20,000 bases of DNA from an uncultured virus (IMG/VR IMGVR_UViG_3300005827_000008) (taxonomy: Duplodnaviria; Heunggongvirae; Uroviricota; Caudoviricetes), in the IMG/VR virus record IMGVR_UViG_3300005827_000008, one strand, 5' to 3'. A program made the translations under genes and the position numbers. The notes beneath the pieces are model-generated. The model worked only from the letters and a program-made list of their open reading frames with translations. It was not told the DNA's origin and did no database searches. This document shows, piece by piece, positions 2,974 through 19,941 of this stretch. Every line of letters starts with the position of its first letter. The stretch's first letter is position 1.

Positions 2974-3894
2974 ATGACAACCCCAGCAGAAACAAAAAAA
3001 CAACTTGCCCCGTGGAAACAGCAGCTTCTCATCGCAGAGCAAAAGTGCCTAGCAATAACCAATCCCGAAAGAGTTAAAATAGAACTTGGCTTTGCAGCGC
3101 AACTTCTACAAAACTCCGCAGACTTGCAAAAATGCACCCCAGAAAGTATTCAGAACGCAGTAATAAATGTTGCACGAACTGGCGTTACCCTTAACCCTAT
3201 TATGAAATTTGCTCACCTTGTTAACCGGGGGGGTAAATGCACACTGGATATTGATTACAAGGGTTTGATTAAGATAATGATTGACAATGAATGTTGTAAA
3301 AACATTATTGCAATCATTGTGTATGACGATGAAGAATTTGAAGAAAGCGAAAGCCCAATCCAACCACACGCCCACAAAAGAAAGCATGTTGACACGGAAG
3401 AAGAACAGGCAAAACGCAAGATAATCGGGGTTTACAGCCGTGTGCTAATGATGGATAACACCGTTATGTACACTGAGTTTATGCCTTACTGGCACGTATT
3501 GAAAGTTGAAAAGTCAAGCCCTGCCGCAAGGTCACAGTATTCACCGTGGAAGTCATGGAGAGAAAGCATGATTAAGAAAACTAAGATTCGCTATGACTTT
3601 AAGTTCCTGCCGCCCCGCAACACGTCAAATGAAATTTCTGCAATTATTGAACTGGAAGATCAGAATAACGGAGCCGCAAAGCCTATTCAAAGCGGGAAAA
3701 GAGGGTTGGCCGATGTATTTAATATTGATGAGGCAAGTTTTGAGGAAATAAGCGATATAACAACCGAAGATCAATTAAGGGAATTGCTTTCAACTAAAAA
3801 CACCCCAGAAGAAGTTGAGGAACTGCAAAAGCAAATAGGGGCAAACTTTCCAAAAGAAATATTTACCGACCGCATAGACCAACTTAAAAAGTAG
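2974..3894 (+). CDS. recT: RecT-family single-strand annealing recombinase
   Basis: LQKCTPESIQNAVINVARTGVTLNP, IDYKGLI and SPWKSWRESMIKKT are typical RecT motifs; paired with the exonuclease. Confidence 0.88.
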   Translation: MTTPAETKKQLAPWKQQLLIAEQKCLAITNPERVKIELGFAAQLLQNSADLQKCTPESIQNAVINVARTGVTLNPIMKFAHLVNRGGKCTLDIDYKGLIKIMIDNECCKNIIAIIVYDDEEFEESESPIQPHAHKRKHVDTEEEQAKRKIIGVYSRVLMMDNTVMYTEFMPYWHVLKVEKSSPAARSQYSPWKSWRESMIKKTKIRYDFKFLPPRNTSNEISAIIELEDQNNGAAKPIQSGKRGLADVFNIDEASFEEISDITTEDQLRELLSTKNTPEEVEELQKQIGANFPKEIFTDRIDQLKK

Positions 3895-3971: not shown

Positions 3972-4148
3972 ATGAAAATAACAGTAAAAACCACCATGAT
4001 AGAACTGGCCGTGGAAGACCATGTAGTTCTTGGCACGGATAATTACCCGGCCAGAAGTTTAGCCCCCACTATTGAAGCAGTTCAGGGGGTAATAACAGAA
4101 GCTATCCGGCTTCATAATGAAGTAGCAAAGGGGTATGAAGTAAAGTAA
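3972..4148 (+). CDS. small hypothetical protein (58 aa; not in the ORF track)
   Basis: MKITVKTTMIELAVEDHVVLG...AKGYEVK*; its TAA (4146-4148) is the TAA of the attC-like core TAAC. Confidence 0.7.
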   Translation: MKITVKTTMIELAVEDHVVLGTDNYPARSLAPTIEAVQGVITEAIRLHNEVAKGYEVK

Positions 4149-4275
4149 CGACCGAGTATTGCCGAAGTTGGGGAATTGGCAGTACCGAAGTTGATTTAAA
4201 AACAAATGATAACAAATTATTCAAAAGCCCATCAAAGTACGTCAAGCCCCAATTTTGGCAATACTTATGTTAGGC
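4143..4275 (-). repeat. attC-like recombination site (site A)
   Basis: TAAC 4146-4149 ... GTTAGGC 4269-4275 encloses arms AGTATTGCCGAAGTTGGGG (4155-4173) and CCCCAATTTTGGCAATACT (4247-4265): 17/19 Watson-Crick pairs plus 2 G-T on the + strand, with asymmetric spacers. Confidence 0.75.
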
Positions 4276-4603
4276 ACGGTACGGTAAAATTATGGAATAC
4301 GCTGATGTAATTTCTCTTGGGTGGAAAGATAGAAACCCTGAAAGTAAAAATGAAAATACAAAGACATTTATTTATGAATCCGAAGGTTTTGATTACCACA
4401 TAATGAGTGTCGGATTTGGTTGTGGTGATGATACAGCTTTTGACTTGATAATGATAAACTGTGTGCCTCAAGAAACTGTGTCAAATATTTGGGAAAATTC
4501 CGAAACCCATTTTTACGGTGAAATGAAAACAAAACAAGAGTTAGATATAACAATGCAACTTGTCGGGGTTACTCAATATAGAGGGTTGTAGTATTGTGCC
4601 TAA
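4149..4603 (-). mobile_element. integron-type gene cassette A (attC-like site plus one gene)
   Basis: The gene is bracketed by GTTAGGCACGGTAC (4269-4282) and GTATTGTGCCTAAC (4591-4604), a 12/14 inverted match, as expected for an integrated circular cassette. Confidence 0.7.
4292..4591 (+). CDS. hypothetical protein (cargo of cassette A)
   Basis: 99-aa ORF that fills the space between the two core sites almost exactly. Confidence 0.75.
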   Translation: MEYADVISLGWKDRNPESKNENTKTFIYESEGFDYHIMSVGFGCGDDTAFDLIMINCVPQETVSNIWENSETHFYGEMKTKQELDITMQLVGVTQYRGL

Positions 4604-4704
4604 CATAAAATATGTACCGCACCTCATGTAATTCAATTAAACACAGACAGTTGATATGAACGTTTCTGAACACGTGCAGTTTTTCATTCAGGAAATGAAA
4701 CGCC

Positions 4705-13246: not shown

Positions 13247-14152
13247 TTAAGAACCGCATTCGGAAAACACCTCACAACTTTCACCGCCCACCAAGTCTAA
13301 GTCTTCATATAATGTTGCTTCGTCAAATTTCATTGCATCATCTATGATTGGCTTAAAATTGGTTTTGCTTTCGTCAATTATATTTTGAACGCTTTTGTTT
13401 TCACGAAAGAACCTTACTGGCATGGTGGGCAGCTCTCCCCGTTCTTTAAGTTTTTTCAACCTTGTTTCAGGCACAAACCTCTCGTATCTCAACTCCATTT
13501 TACCAAAAAAACTAAACGCGTATTCGTTCTCTCTTGCAATCTGATAGAGTTTCGGGTTCCCCTTTTTCCAGCAAGTGATGCAGTTCCCTTGATACCCCTT
13601 CAACTGCAACCTAAACGGCATTTGTGACCACCAAAAGTTAATCTTTGGCTTTGTCATTGGCTGCATATTCTTTGAAATCAACGGGTAGATAAACCCCATT
13701 TCCTTCGCCTTTGCGTTCATCCTGTCAGCTTCATCGGCCCTAATGCCGATGGCTGTACAGTATTTCTTCCAGCCAATGCTTTTTGCGTAGCTTTTAATTG
13801 GGGCTTGTTTTAACTCTCTTGTGCAATGCGGGGTGGCTATGTTGGGGATGCCGTACTTGCGTATAACGTCTTCAAATACCTTTCCGTCTTTATCGGCAGT
13901 ATTGTAATTAACTATTCGGTGCGTACTCCCTTTTCGCTCCCCATGATGCACAACGGTTTCAATCCAAACAACAGGAAATCCAAAATAAACAGAGCATTGA
14001 TTTACAAACCGCAAGGTTTCCTCGTTTTCTTGTCCGGTGTTTGCGAACACGAAAACCATTTCAAACCTGTCTTGACAGTGCTTCCATAGCCATTGAGCCA
14101 TGTAGGCCGAGGTCTCCCCCCCACTAAATGACACTAATAACTTTTTCTTCAT
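13247..14152 (-). CDS. PAPS reductase/DndC-like PP-loop family protein
   Basis: LVSFSGGETSAYM (PP-loop), FANTGQENEETLRFV, CTRELKQAPI, GIRADEADR, GNCITCWKKG. Start is ATG 14152 (MKKKLLVS) or 14167. Confidence 0.85.
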   Translation of the reverse strand: MKKKLLVSFSGGETSAYMAQWLWKHCQDRFEMVFVFANTGQENEETLRFVNQCSVYFGFPVVWIETVVHHGERKGSTHRIVNYNTADKDGKVFEDVIRKYGIPNIATPHCTRELKQAPIKSYAKSIGWKKYCTAIGIRADEADRMNAKAKEMGFIYPLISKNMQPMTKPKINFWWSQMPFRLQLKGYQGNCITCWKKGNPKLYQIARENEYAFSFFGKMELRYERFVPETRLKKLKERGELPTMPVRFFRENKSVQNIIDESKTNFKPIIDDAMKFDEATLYEDLDLVGGESCEVFSECGS

Positions 14153-14171
14153 TCCCGCTTGTTCCATGCTA

Positions 14172-16400: not shown

Positions 16401-16606
16401 TTGTTAGAGTTGCTTAACTTCTCTTTAACTCTCATTAGCCTGTCGTAGTAGGGTTTAAAAACTTTGTTACCTGATCTTGCTTTTAAGAGTATAATGTGTG
16501 ACTTTATAAAGTGTGGTAAATTTAATATTGTTTCGTACTCTGAAAGTATGAGTTTTTGCGGGAGGGATTGGTCGTTAAACCAGAGTTCAAGCTGTTGCAG
16601 GGTCAA
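16397..16606 (-). CDS. small conserved Bacteroidota protein (DUF6965-like, recalled)
   Basis: MTLQQLELWF...LP...ETILNLPHFIKSHI...PYYDRL pattern; family name from memory. Confidence 0.6.
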   Translation of the reverse strand: MTLQQLELWFNDQSLPQKLILSEYETILNLPHFIKSHIILLKARSGNKVFKPYYDRLMRVKEKLSNSNK

Positions 16607-17376
16607 AATTCTCTTTCATTTTGCATCCTAACCAAACATTCGTGTGGGGTTTCGCCTGTTTTTATGCGGTAACTGCACCCAATTGTACCGCCCTTCCACG
16701 AACCTTTTCTTTCGCCAACTTCTTTATCAAATTCAACGGCTATGGTTCTGTGCGTTTTGGCAAATAGCCCCGTCCACTTAAACCACAATGGTCGCCATTC
16801 TCTTTCTTCTACCCCGATTGTTGCGTTTACAATAGTGTTGTCGTATTTGTCAAGGTATTCATGCGTTCCAGTCCATTTGTTTTCATTTAGCCAGTCACGG
16901 CTACCAACAGTGTCTTTGTCTTTGCTCCAATCAACCCGATTAGATTCTGTTTCATGGAACCAGTCATAGCCCCGCTTCATAAGGGTAGATGTTCGTACCC
17001 AAGTCATGTGCCAAGGCAGTGTAATCGCTTTCCATTTTCTGCCGCCTTCAAAATTCCCGGCACCCCCTATGTAAATCCAGATTTTATTGTCATGGAAGTT
17101 TATTCCCCATGCGGCACTGTCGCAATCTTGTATTCCTGTTTTTATGGGTAGGTGAATGTATATTTTCCCATATCCGAATAATAATAAGGGAATGGTGAGC
17201 AAAAACCAGGGGGACTGCGCCACGGCAAAGGGCAACATAATAAGCGCAATAATCTGAGTGATACTTGTGTTCACTTGCGGCCTTTCGTCAAAATATCCGG
17301 CTTTTTCTACATAGAATCCGGCTCTAAATTCAGGGTAAAAGCGTACCCATGTCATGTCTTCTGTTTTATAAGTCAT
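16603..17376 (-). CDS. hypothetical membrane-anchored, Trp-rich protein
   Basis: 257 aa with a hydrophobic stretch IIALIMLPFAVAQSPWFLLTIPLLLFGY. Confidence 0.75.
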   Translation of the reverse strand: MTYKTEDMTWVRFYPEFRAGFYVEKAGYFDERPQVNTSITQIIALIMLPFAVAQSPWFLLTIPLLLFGYGKIYIHLPIKTGIQDCDSAAWGINFHDNKIWIYIGGAGNFEGGRKWKAITLPWHMTWVRTSTLMKRGYDWFHETESNRVDWSKDKDTVGSRDWLNENKWTGTHEYLDKYDNTIVNATIGVEEREWRPLWFKWTGLFAKTHRTIAVEFDKEVGERKGSWKGGTIGCSYRIKTGETPHECLVRMQNEREF

Positions 17377-18915: not shown

Positions 18916-18985
18916 TTTTCTTTTGCGGATTATTCGTCAATGTCTCCAAGCATTGTTATACCAGTTAGTTATACATATACGCAAG

Positions 18986-19366
18986 TTATGCGTTATTGTA
19001 AAGAGGCACATCGTAACCTTTAGCTATTAAGTATTTAATTGTTTCAAAACAGACACGATTTCTTTGTTTCGGGTCTTGTTCTTTATTTTTTTCATAATCT
19101 TTTGAATAGTGCCAGTGAAAGTCTTTCCACTTGAAAAAGAACACATAATCAGCAGATTTCATATTGTCAGAAACTCTGTAAGAAGTATAATCTAAAACAA
19201 GTGTGTCGCTAAACATTTTATTGTCAAAATCTGTAATTACAGGCTCGTTCCAAATCTTTTCTCCATTGTGCATTATCACTGGACAACATCCTTCAATAAT
19301 CACTATTTGCAGTAAATCTTCTGCGGTCATTTCTTTTAGCGGTTTATTACCAATTTCTATTATCAT
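18986..19366 (-). CDS. hypothetical protein (cargo of cassette B)
   Basis: ATG at 19366 (MIIEIGNK); the stop TAA is the TAA of the core site. The ORF-track GTG at 19405 lies inside the attC-like site. Confidence 0.75.
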   Translation of the reverse strand: MIIEIGNKPLKEMTAEDLLQIVIIEGCCPVIMHNGEKIWNEPVITDFDNKMFSDTLVLDYTSYRVSDNMKSADYVFFFKWKDFHWHYSKDYEKNKEQDPKQRNRVCFETIKYLIAKGYDVPLYNNA

Positions 19367-19519
19367 AATTTTGAATTTGCGAAGAACAACAACGCATAAC
19401 AGCACCTACCCAAAAGCGGGGTTTCAGTGGTATTATGTGGTTTTGTGCTTCTATTTAAGTTCATTGTAAATTGACAGTTTTGTGTTCCAAATTCCCCGCC
19501 TTCGGGTAGCTGCAACACG
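18986..19519 (+). mobile_element. integron-type gene cassette B
   Basis: G|TTATGCGTTATTGT (18985-18999) versus ACAACAACGCATAAC (19386-19400), a 14/15 inverted match around the gene, followed by an attC-like hairpin. Confidence 0.75.
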
Positions 19520-19525
19520 TTATGT
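19394..19525 (+). repeat. attC-like recombination site (site B)
   Basis: GCATAAC ... GTTATGT with arms GCACCTACCCAAAAGCGGGG (19402-19421) and CCCCGCCTTCGGGTAGCTGC (19494-19513); two of the three mismatches become G-T on the - strand. Confidence 0.8.
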
Positions 19526-19935
19526 GCAAGGCTACTGACCGTCTTCGATAGAAAGTTTAGACAATATAGTATCTGCTGTTTTAATCGCTACTTCTGCAAC
19601 AATTTCACTTTGCATTAAATACTTTTCGCCTTTGTATTCTTTCATCCATTCTGGATTAGAAAGTAGTCCTTGCATTGCGTTTGCTATAAAATATTCCCTT
19701 TTAGTAAGTCCAGCCGAATATGCTTTAACTGCTGCTACTGTTTGTCCTGTTTCTAAGGTCCTATTCACTTTGAAAGGGAATATTGATTTGTCTGCGTTTT
19801 TCATTTGTATATTTATTTAAGTGATTACTAATTTAACCGTGCCTATCTGCTAACATTGGCTAAACAAAAGCGGCATAGCGCACTGCCAAAAGTTACCACA
19901 AAAGTTTGTTGCCGCTTTTGTTTAGCCAAATACCG
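19520..19935 (+). mobile_element. integron-type gene cassette C
   Basis: Begins at G|TTATGTG, carries one gene and ends in attC-like site C; end-to-end core match is only 9/14. Confidence 0.6.
19532..19804 (-). CDS. conserved hypothetical phage protein (cargo of cassette C)
   Basis: GLTKREYFIANAMQGLLSN...AIKTADTILSKL matches the common phage GmTlRdYFAa.AMqg...AD.ml family. Confidence 0.8.
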   Translation of the reverse strand: MKNADKSIFPFKVNRTLETGQTVAAVKAYSAGLTKREYFIANAMQGLLSNPEWMKEYKGEKYLMQSEIVAEVAIKTADTILSKLSIEDGQ

Positions 19936-19941
19936 TTACTT
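19848..19941 (+). repeat. attC-like recombination site (site C)
   Basis: TGCTAAC ... GTTACTT enclosing a perfect 20-bp inverted repeat, TTGGCTAAACAAAAGCGGCA (19856-19875) / TGCCGCTTTTGTTTAGCCAA (19910-19929). Confidence 0.7.

What the first reader, a model, noticed from the sequence alone, without database searches (positions are those of the whole stretch)
19366..19525. Cargo genes are reversed relative to canonical attC polarity
Seen: the imperfect pairs of site A are G-T on the + strand, and two of the three in site B are G-T on the - strand. In both cases this is the cargo coding strand. The longer core-proximal spacer flips with gene direction at all three sites, and by core matching (clear for A and B) each hairpin belongs to the gene downstream of it. 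Established: in classical integrons attC lies 3' of its gene and the better-folding, recombinogenic bottom strand is the non-coding strand. Inference: a consistent reverse-cassette design that puts the hairpin in the 5' leader, where it could also act as an RNA processing or translation element.
Basis: partly seen in the sequence, partly recalled or inferred. Interest (0 to 1): 0.7.

Follow-up and report, generated by a model that had tools for sequence, protein, structure and literature searches.

The report
Mirror-polarity integron-like cassettes in a phage
A phage of Bacteroidota carries hairpin recombination sites of the kind that bound gene cassettes in its hosts' integron-like arrays, but with the genes on the opposite strand, so each hairpin sits in front of its gene and is transcribed with it.

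Summary
The window has three hairpin sites: A 4146-4272 (+), B 19397-19522 (-) and C 19851-19938 (-). On the coding strand each reads TAAC-N5-stem-loop-stem-N1-3-GTTA. The G·T pairs lie on the coding strand, which folds better at A and B.

The sites belong to a large family of about 126 nt with strong covariation (13 of 19 stem pairs). It occurs in at least 130 viral stretches and at least 124 genome stretches, almost all Bacteroidota.

In bacterial chromosomes the elements follow the 3' end of co-directional genes beside a Xer-like tyrosine recombinase. There the modelled, better-folding strand is non-coding, which is the canonical polarity. In phage contigs the genes lie on the modelled strand (217 flanks same, 7 opposite; bacteria 5 same, 62 opposite).

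Matched cores flank each gene, as in integron cassettes. Solitary end cores place the hairpin 5' of its cargo, in the window after cassettes A and B, and in 54 of 67 phage array ends.

Its core-matching argument cannot by itself tell the two polarities apart. An RNA role is untested. I rate this a new variant of a known kind.

The parts
4146..4272 (+). Site A: 127-nt attC-like hairpin element (TAAC, 4-5-nt spacer, 19-20-bp stem with G·T pairs, 73-nt loop, 2-3-nt spacer, GTTA)
   Evidence: Model R1 scores 81.3 bits, E 1.2e-14, on the + strand. Pair string, folds.
4292..4591 (+). Cargo ORF of cassette A (99 aa, no family match)
   Evidence: ORF list. No Pfam or PHROG match.
4591..4604 (+). Solitary end core of cassette A (GTATTGTGCCTAAC). 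It complements the right core and flank of site A at 12 of 14 positions, and both mismatches would be G·T pairs. No hairpin follows it.
   Evidence: No R1 hit there.
19851..19938 (-). Site C: short (88-nt) member of the family with a 20-bp perfect stem
   Evidence: R1 scores 51.9 bits on - against 30.2 on +. Inverted repeat I1.
19532..19804 (-). Cargo ORF between C and B (90 aa, 'gene a')
   Evidence: ORF list. phrog_2201, unknown function, E 1e-8. Homologues of 62-64% identity in three viral contigs.
19397..19522 (-). Site B: 126-nt element, the one inside the finding's coordinates
   Evidence: R1 scores 102.9 bits on - against 20.8 on +. Pair string, folds.
19367..19396 (-). 30-nt leader between the right core of B and the ATG of gene b. 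It is conserved together with gene b in contigs L001 and L002.
18986..19366 (-). Cargo ORF of cassette B (126 aa, 'gene b')
   Evidence: ORF list. 97% and 65% identical homologues lie behind different hairpins.
18985..18998 (-). Solitary end core of cassette B (CAATAACGCATAAC). It complements the right core and flank of B at 13 of 14 positions. Its TAA is the stop codon of gene b. No hairpin follows it.
   Evidence: No R1 hit there.

Best explanation
Sites A, B and C are recombination sites of an integron-like gene-cassette system of Bacteroidota. Each is a hairpin of about 126 nt bounded by the triplets AAC and GTT.

In bacterial chromosomes these hairpins follow the 3' ends of co-directional accessory genes downstream of a Xer-like tyrosine recombinase. 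There the better-folding strand is non-coding.

Phages carry a mirror variant in which the genes, and the recombinase where one is present, lie on the better-folding strand. A phage cassette is therefore hairpin, short leader, gene and end core. The hairpin is transcribed in the sense direction as a stable stem with G·U pairs.

What is shown: family membership, covariation, the strand reversal, matched cores around each gene, and the position of the array ends and of the recombinase.

What is inferred:
- The recombinase cuts the folded modelled strand at AA|C in the left core, as IntI does on the bottom strand.
- This phage, with no recombinase in the window, relies on one supplied in trans by a host array or by another phage.
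- The transcribed hairpin has an added RNA-level effect.
For: - Family and structure. The pattern scan found at least 130 viral and at least 124 genome stretches. The viral stretches hold 129 distinct elements of 123-128 nt. Compensatory changes occur in 13 of 19 stem pairs. Model R1 hits 63 of 151 sampled Bacteroidota genomes.
- Cassette signature. The 10 nt beyond the cores on either side of a gene are complementary at 8 or more of 10 positions in 76 of 124 phage and 13 of 23 bacterial neighbour pairs. The same holds for 1 of 203 and 0 of 40 own-element flanks, and for 11 of 1011 and 0 of 199 random pairs.
- Polarity. ORF strand in the 500-nt flanks, phage: 217 same, 7 opposite, 148 ambiguous, 12 without flank, from 192 elements. 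Window plus five relatives: 22 same, 0 opposite. Bacteria: 5 same, 62 opposite, 13 ambiguous, from 40 elements.
- Recombinase. A homologue lies downstream of the array in model orientation in 11 bacterial loci, always on the opposite strand, and in 7 viral loci, always on the same strand (positions read).
- Phage identity. G011 and G004 are true phages.
- Unit. Solitary partner cores end cassettes A and B in the window. They also end 54 of 67 phage arrays downstream, against 14 of 47 upstream, with controls of 0. A solitary core lies next to the recombinase in L280, L071, L032, L217 and L199.
- Canonical reference. Nivina 2016 (PMC5027507; introduction and passages) reports that the bottom strand is recombinogenic, more stable, and carries 1.24 G:T mispairs against 0.39.
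Against: - No tyrosine recombinase lies in the window's scanned ORFs or in five related contigs, two of them complete.
- Breakpoints are not confined to the left core. Of 31 pairs that share only the right flank, 18 have interiors under 75% alike, and chimeric hairpins exist.
- The arms of site B go with the upstream gene's homologue.
- The right core of site C matches the left core of B at only 9 of 14 positions (my reading).
- Features of classical attC are missing. There are no conserved extrahelical bases. The spacers are 5 and 1 nt rather than 5-6 on each arm. The recombinase lacks the stretch that matches positions 182-239 of the integron-integrase model.
- No recombination has been observed.
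Confidence: 0.72

Rival explanations
1. The hairpins act only at the RNA level in the phage, as processing sites, stabilisers or terminators between cistrons. On this view the mosaic pattern comes from ordinary homologous recombination between similar repeats.
For: - On the sense strand, G·T outnumbers A·C by 235 to 78 in 117 phage elements not chosen by the pattern, against 37 to 26 in 19 bacterial ones.
- The sense RNA folds better at A and B.
- Chimeric hairpins and breakpoints at both cores exist.
- RecT lies just upstream of site A.
- No recombinase was found in the window or in five relatives.
Against: - The same family lies antisense to the genes in bacterial arrays beside a recombinase.
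- Cassette-specific complementary cores flank each gene. Homologous exchange inside repeats would not create them.
- Solitary end cores are present.
- No run of T follows the stems.
- Seven viral contigs carry the recombinase at the array end.
Confidence: 0.12
2. Polarity is canonical in position. Each hairpin belongs to the gene upstream of it and the crossover is at the right core. Only the hairpin itself is flipped.
For: - The arms of site B are 92% and 96% like those of L011 4263-4388, which follows the homologue of the upstream gene. The 97%-identical downstream gene in L001 sits behind a different hairpin.
- 14 of 47 array-first elements have an upstream partner core.
- 18 of 31 pairs that share only the right flank have unlike interiors.
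Against: - 54 of 67 array-last elements have a downstream solitary partner.
- Cassettes A and B in the window end in solitary cores, and the ORF before A has no matching core upstream.
- A gene plus a solitary core, not a hairpin, abuts the recombinase.
- Among the 6 pairs that share only the left flank, 5 have interiors at background likeness.
Confidence: 0.1
3. The hairpins are small selfish insertions (MITE-like) that target a TAAC/GTTA palindrome. They have nothing to do with the neighbouring genes.
For: Of 105 element pairs with interiors at least 88% alike, 68 differ on both flanks.
Against: - The flanks of one and the same element are not complementary: 1 of 203 reach 8 of 10 positions. 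The flanks across a gene are.
- The elements form regular one-gene arrays next to a recombinase.
Confidence: 0.03

Closest known systems
Integron attC sites and gene cassettes (IntI-dependent; Nivina 2016, PMC5027507)
   Same: - Imperfect hairpin bounded by conserved AAC and GTT.
- The outer core of each site is matched to the core on the far side of the gene.
- One-gene cassettes in same-direction arrays beside a tyrosine recombinase.
- One strand is richer in G·T and folds better.
   Different: - No conserved extrahelical bases.
- Spacers of 5 and 1 nt rather than 5-6 on each arm.
- The paired outer core extends to about 14 bp.
- The recombinase is Xer-like and lacks the IntI-specific stretch.
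- In phages the genes lie on the better-folding strand.
rAID-1 recombinase-associated arrays of Bacteroidales (Ross et al. 2019, bioRxiv 10.1101/471110; passages read)
   Same: The bacterial loci here show a 5' XerD-like recombinase, co-directional downstream genes and repeated intergenic sequences 'reminiscent of integrons'.
   Different: - I could not compare repeats or recombinase with those of B. fragilis. The supplement was not readable and no sequence was at hand.
- The cargo here is not visibly immunity genes.
- The phage form has the recombinase at the 3' end of the array and reversed gene polarity.
CALINs in phage genomes (Qi et al. 2023, PMC9892861; passages and section 3.4 read)
   Same: Clusters of attC-like sites without an integrase in virulent phages, one of them a phage of the Bacteroidota genus Polaribacter, with methyltransferase cargo. 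G004 here also has a methyltransferase cassette.
   Different: - Model R1 finds nothing in Polaribacter phage P12002L, so this is a different site family.
- That paper notes sites in divergent directions but not a systematic gene reversal.
- It does not report phage arrays with their own Xer-like recombinase.
PeSL mobile regulatory cassettes of T4-type phages and the RNase III sites between T7 early genes (recalled, not looked up here)
   Same: Stem-loops between small early genes at points of modular exchange or mRNA processing.
   Different: Those have no AAC/GTT cores, no gene-spanning matched cores, no linked recombinase and no bacterial counterpart.

Membership tests
Classical integron attC | Hairpin bounded by conserved 5'-AAC ... 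GTT-3' core triplets | tested here: met
   Of 243 elements, 224 begin TAACG and 225 end TGTTA. Variants keep AAC and GTT.
Classical integron attC | The outer core is complementary to the core half on the other side of the cassette's gene (signature of a circular cassette) | tested here: met
   At least 8 of 10 positions complementary in 76 of 124 phage and 13 of 23 bacterial neighbour pairs, against 0-1% in controls.
Classical integron attC | Extrahelical bases near L'' and an unpaired central spacer of 5-6 nt on each arm | tested here: not met
   The consensus stem of 19 pairs has no conserved bulge. Median spacers are 5 and 1 nt, and the 5' spacer is the longer in 225 of the 226 elements scored.
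Classical integron attC | The better-folding, G·T-richer bottom strand is the non-coding strand and the site lies 3' of its gene | tested here: not met
   Met in the bacterial arrays. Reversed in the window and in phage contigs, with 217 flanks same against 7 opposite.
Classical integron attC | Neighbouring integron integrase with the IntI-specific insertion | tested here: not met
   The 294-aa recombinase of L217 scores 197.3 bits on TIGR02249 (cut-off 265) in two stretches that skip model positions 182-239. It scores 210.6 on NF040815 (cut-off 220). No recombinase lies in the window.
Classical integron attC | Recombined as a folded single strand by the integrase | not testable with these tools
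   Needs a strand-specific recombination assay.
rAID-1-type array | 5' XerD-like recombinase followed by at least 2 co-directional genes with repeated intergenic sequences | tested here: inconclusive
   Met in L217, and the geometry is the same in 11 of 11 bacterial loci with a homologue. Not met in the 7 viral loci, where the recombinase lies at the 3' end. The window holds no recombinase.
rAID-1-type array | Recombinase at least 44% identical to that of B. fragilis NCTC 9343; cargo of immunity genes | not tested
   The reference protein was not at hand. Pfam hits in 5 of 14 bacterial cargo ORFs are not immunity families.
CALIN (cluster of attC sites lacking an integrase) | At least two attC sites close together and no integrase nearby | tested here: inconclusive
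   B and C lie 329 nt apart with no recombinase in 20 kb. The calls come from my own model, not from IntegronFinder or HattCI, which I could not run.

The most novel reading that the evidence does not exclude
Phages of Bacteroidota run their own integron-like gene-capture platform. Some carry its recombinase. Its cassettes are built in mirror polarity to those of the hosts, so the recombination hairpin doubles as a transcribed RNA stem at the head of each cistron. Because of the reversal, a cassette that crosses between a phage array and a host array would arrive antisense to the array's other genes.
Probability: 0.4. Interest if true: 0.88.

Novelty: new variant of a known kind. Interest (0 to 1): 0.8.

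Why it matters
- Integron cassettes are thought of as a gene followed by its attC, with the recombinogenic strand non-coding. How a gene acquires its attC is an old open question. A large natural class with the opposite polarity, beside a canonical class of the same site family in the hosts, gives that question a direct comparison.
- It shows that phages can have cassette platforms of their own. This bears on how phage early regions, rich in counter-defence genes (an Acb3 homologue and methyltransferases lie in this window), are shuffled.
- It offers a test of whether one hairpin serves both as a DNA recombination site and as an RNA element.

Tried and rejected
- Rfam: no family matches the elements in the window or in five loci.
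- Cultured phages: blastn of a high-scoring element found nothing, and R1 found nothing in Polaribacter phage P12002L.
- Own genome: none is held. Earlier notes of this scan: none.
- Sequencing runs: no RNA holder is listed, and only small shares (at most 0.09) of the words are held. I therefore did not lay reads.
- nhmmer with the same alignment was much less sensitive than the covariance model, with 4 against 11 distinct hits in L086, so I dropped it. My own hairpin finder recovered 7 of those 11, so I used it only for strand-neutral counts.
- The first pair script had a slicing error that zeroed the left-flank scores. It was corrected and the conclusion did not change.
- Core matching as a way to tell which gene a hairpin belongs to: rejected, because both polarities predict matched cores around each gene.
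- Terminator reading: no run of T follows the stems.
- Best integron-integrase-like hits in four other bacterial genomes have no element within 1.5 kb. The array-linked recombinases came from tblastn instead.
- Phage and bacterial elements at least 88% alike: the 10 such pairs trace to two short IMG/VR contigs (L050, L070) whose flanks have the bacterial orientation. They are therefore no evidence of recent exchange.
- Literature searches found no paper that describes the reversal. The library lacks most subscription journals, and the preprint's supplements were closed.

Full report
**What the window is.** The 20 kb are a run of small genes typical of a phage early region. They include RecT (2974-3894, +), a methyltransferase, an HTH protein, a PAPS-reductase-like protein, a homologue of the CBASS inhibitor Acb3 (16603-17376, -), DUF5675 and YopX. 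The weak DNA matches are to phages of Tenacibaculum and Cellulophaga. No whole genome is held for the window.

**The observation.** Three hairpin sites stand out: A 4146-4272, B 19397-19522 and C 19851-19938.
- Read on the strand of the neighbouring genes (+ for A, - for B and C), all three have one plan: TAAC, a spacer of about 5 nt, a stem of 19-20 bp, a loop of 34-73 nt, the second arm, a spacer of 1-3 nt, then GTTA.
- The imperfect pairs are G·T on the coding strand: three in A, and two of three in B. C is perfect.
- The coding strand folds better at A and B, both as DNA (-21.0 against -17.1 and -22.2 against -17.1 kcal/mol) and as RNA (-45.6 against -32.8 and -45.0 against -41.1). C is about equal on both strands.

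**A large family.**
- Homologues of the two genes next to B sit in other viral contigs between hairpins of the same plan but different sequence.
They hold 129 distinct elements of 123-128 nt, although the pattern allowed 107-139. One is an evident false match.
- In the alignment of 129 elements, 13 of the 19 predicted stem pairs show compensatory double changes. The invariant block CGAAGG/CTTTTG with its two G·T pairs was forced by the pattern.
- The covariance model R1 built from the alignment is strongly strand-specific. In the window it finds A, B and C and nothing else.
- In 80 viral loci it gives 285 hits at E<=0.001, counting repeats from overlapping loci. Many form dense arrays on one strand, with an element every 300-700 nt.
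- Rfam has no matching family.

**The same family in bacterial chromosomes, next to a recombinase.**
- The same pattern matched at least 124 stretches in the species-representative genomes. Nearly all are Bacteroidota (Chitinophagaceae, Flavobacteriales, Sphingobacteriaceae, Cytophagales), and isolates are among them.
- R1 finds arrays of 4-9 elements in 10-kb loci. It hits 63 of 151 sampled genomes of the phylum.
- In Pedobacter glucosidilyticus (L217) a 294-aa tyrosine recombinase is followed by seven co-directional ORFs. Six of these are followed within 0-19 nt of their stop by an element, and the modelled strand of that element is the opposite, non-coding strand. The seventh ORF ends near the edge of the locus.
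- L164 shows the same arrangement. Five of 14 ORFs from these two loci have Pfam matches, so they are real genes.
- The recombinase is Xer-like. It scores 210.6 bits on NF040815 (cut-off 220). It scores 197.3 on the integron-integrase model (cut-off 265) in two stretches that skip positions 182-239.
- This architecture is what Ross et al. describe for rAID-1 arrays of Bacteroidales: a 5' XerD-like recombinase, co-directional genes, and intergenic repeats reminiscent of integrons (passages). I could not test identity with their repeats.

**The polarity reversal is systematic.** I took the coding strand of each 500-nt flank from stop-to-stop ORF coverage.

| Set | Elements | Same strand as model | Opposite | Ambiguous | No flank |
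|---|---|---|---|---|---|
| Viral | 192 | 217 | 7 | 148 | 12 |
| Window and five related contigs | 18 | 22 | 0 | 13 | 1 |
| Bacterial | 40 | 5 | 62 | 13 | 0 |

- The viral set is the hits down to about 45 bits, with duplicates from overlapping loci removed.
- Some of the viral exceptions are two short IMG/VR contigs, L050 and L070. Their elements are 92-98% like bacterial ones and their flanks have the bacterial orientation.
- Related contigs are true phages. G004 (33.5 kb, terminal repeats) has an endolysin, terminase, portal and head protease. G011 (64 kb) has a portal, terminase, virion proteins and a DnaB-like helicase.
- According to Nivina et al. 2016 (introduction and passages), the canonical recombinogenic bottom strand is non-coding, is more stable by 2.12 kcal/mol, and carries 1.24 G:T mispairs against 0.39. 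The bacterial arrays fit this and the phage arrays are its mirror.
- The bias is stronger in phages. In elements not chosen by the pattern, G·T against A·C on the modelled strand is 235 to 78 (n=117), against 37 to 26 in bacteria (n=19). The modelled strand folds better in 99 elements against 16, and in 12 against 7.
- The 5-nt against 1-nt spacer asymmetry is a constant of the family. The 5' spacer is longer in 225 of 226 elements and never shorter.

**These are cassettes, not just repeats.**
- The 10 nt outside the cores on the two sides of a gene are complementary at 8 or more positions in 76 of 124 phage and 13 of 23 bacterial neighbour pairs.
- The two flanks of one element are complementary in 1 of 203 and 0 of 40 cases, and random pairs in 11 of 1011 and 0 of 199.
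- This is the signature of a circular cassette opened inside its site. It does not by itself say which core is cut, because both polarities predict matched cores around each gene.

**Which gene the hairpin goes with.** Three lines point to the downstream gene in phages.
1. *The window itself.*
   - The right core and flank of A (4269-4282) have their partner at 4591-4604, directly after the 99-aa ORF. The match is 12 of 14 and both mismatches would be G·T. No hairpin follows it.
   - The left core of A has no partner upstream of the preceding 58-aa ORF.
   - The right core of B has its partner at 18985-18998 (13 of 14). The TAA of that partner is the stop codon of gene b, and again no hairpin follows.
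2. *Array ends at large.* Of 67 phage elements with no further hit downstream, 54 have such a solitary partner. Of 47 with none upstream, 14 do. Controls give 0 in both. The bacterial numbers are too small to read (3 of 15 and 3 of 17).
3. *The recombinase end.*
   - Homologues of the L217 recombinase lie downstream of the array in model orientation in all 11 bacterial loci that have one, on the opposite strand. They lie in the same place in all 7 viral loci that have one, on the same strand (with positions).
   - Each of the five viral contigs checked has exactly one tyrosine recombinase.
   - Between the last hairpin and the recombinase lie one gene and a solitary core in L280, L071, L032, L217 and L199.
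   - In G011 the order is hairpin, PAPS-reductase gene, hairpin, 100-aa gene, recombinase, all on one strand.

The sites therefore keep their geometry relative to the recombinase, and only the coding strand is flipped. By analogy with IntI, the cut would be at AA|C in the left core of the modelled strand. That step is inferred.

**Evidence that does not fit neatly.**
- Pairs of elements that share only the right flank (31) have interiors of median 73% likeness, against a background of 60%. Only 9 of them reach 85%, and 18 lie under 75%.
- Pairs that share only the left flank (6) are at background, apart from one pair. No pair shares both flanks.
- Some hairpins are chimeras of two arm types. 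Exchange therefore also happens inside and at the right of the element. Homologous recombination is a possible cause, and RecT lies next to site A.
- Site B is the exceptional pair. Its arms are 92% and 96% like those of L011 4263-4388, which follows a 62%-identical homologue of the upstream gene. The 97%-identical gene b of L001 sits behind a different hairpin.
- The right core of C matches the left core of B at only 9 of 14 positions (my reading).
- Five related contigs, two of them complete genomes, have no tyrosine recombinase. The phage of the window would then depend on a recombinase from a host array or from another phage. That too is inferred.

**Comparison with what is known.**
- The elements work like attC sites but fail several defining features of classical ones. 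They lack extrahelical bases and symmetrical spacers, and the recombinase lacks the IntI-specific stretch.
- Phage-borne clusters of attC sites have been reported, and five of six tested sites were shown to recombine with attI1 (Qi et al. 2023, section 3.4 read). One of those phages infects Polaribacter, but R1 finds nothing in its genome. The paper does not describe a gene reversal or a phage-borne Xer-like recombinase.
- Four literature searches found no description of the mirror polarity. The library is incomplete and the supplement of the rAID preprint could not be read.
- A tree of 13 recombinases puts the six phage and seven bacterial proteins on two sides of one branch, with weak support (48/64). 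A single origin is possible but not shown.

**Verdict.**
The window holds three cassettes of a phage-type, mirror-polarity variant of a Bacteroidota integron-like system.
- The RNA role of the transcribed hairpin remains a reasonable but untested idea. The stronger G·U bias in phages is the only hint.

Noticed in passing
window 16603-17376 (-): ORF of 257 aa matching the CBASS inhibitor family Acb3 (PF25187, E 4e-35). It lies in the same gene run as YopX, DUF5675 and DUF6965.
   Followed up: no
window 4146-4148 and 18986-18988: [quoted passage not shown]
   Followed up: partly
window 4273-4282 (+) and 19835-19844 (-): The leaders after the right cores of A and C share the motif TAGGCACGGT. Other elements have GTTAGGCA... 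leaders. This may be a conserved leader signal.
   Followed up: no
loops of the elements, e.g. L006 830-956 and window 19397-19522: The A-rich loop of about 68 nt is built of roughly four units of about 16 nt resembling nAGCACAAAtGTTnAAt. This looks like repeated binding sites.
   Followed up: no
flanks of the elements (alignment A1): The extended outer pairing has a conserved G·T on the modelled strand: left flank ATT against right flank GT, 11-12 nt beyond the core. The partner cores found differ from perfect complementarity at that position.
   Followed up: partly
L002 2049-2232: A 184-nt member of the family has the start of the next ORF (2106-2453) inside its loop.
   Followed up: no
L050 and L070 (IMG/VR contigs of 4.1 and 4.3 kb): Their elements are 92-98% like bacterial ones and their flanks have the bacterial gene orientation. 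They are probably bacterial array fragments filed as viral.
   Followed up: partly
window 13247-14167 (-); L001 after 6500; L280 233-1111: A PAPS-reductase-like gene recurs as cargo behind a hairpin in two other phage contigs. In the window it has no hairpin in front.
   Followed up: no
L002 6487-6556 (-): A tRNA gene in a related viral contig (Rfam RF00005, 43.5 bits).
   Followed up: no
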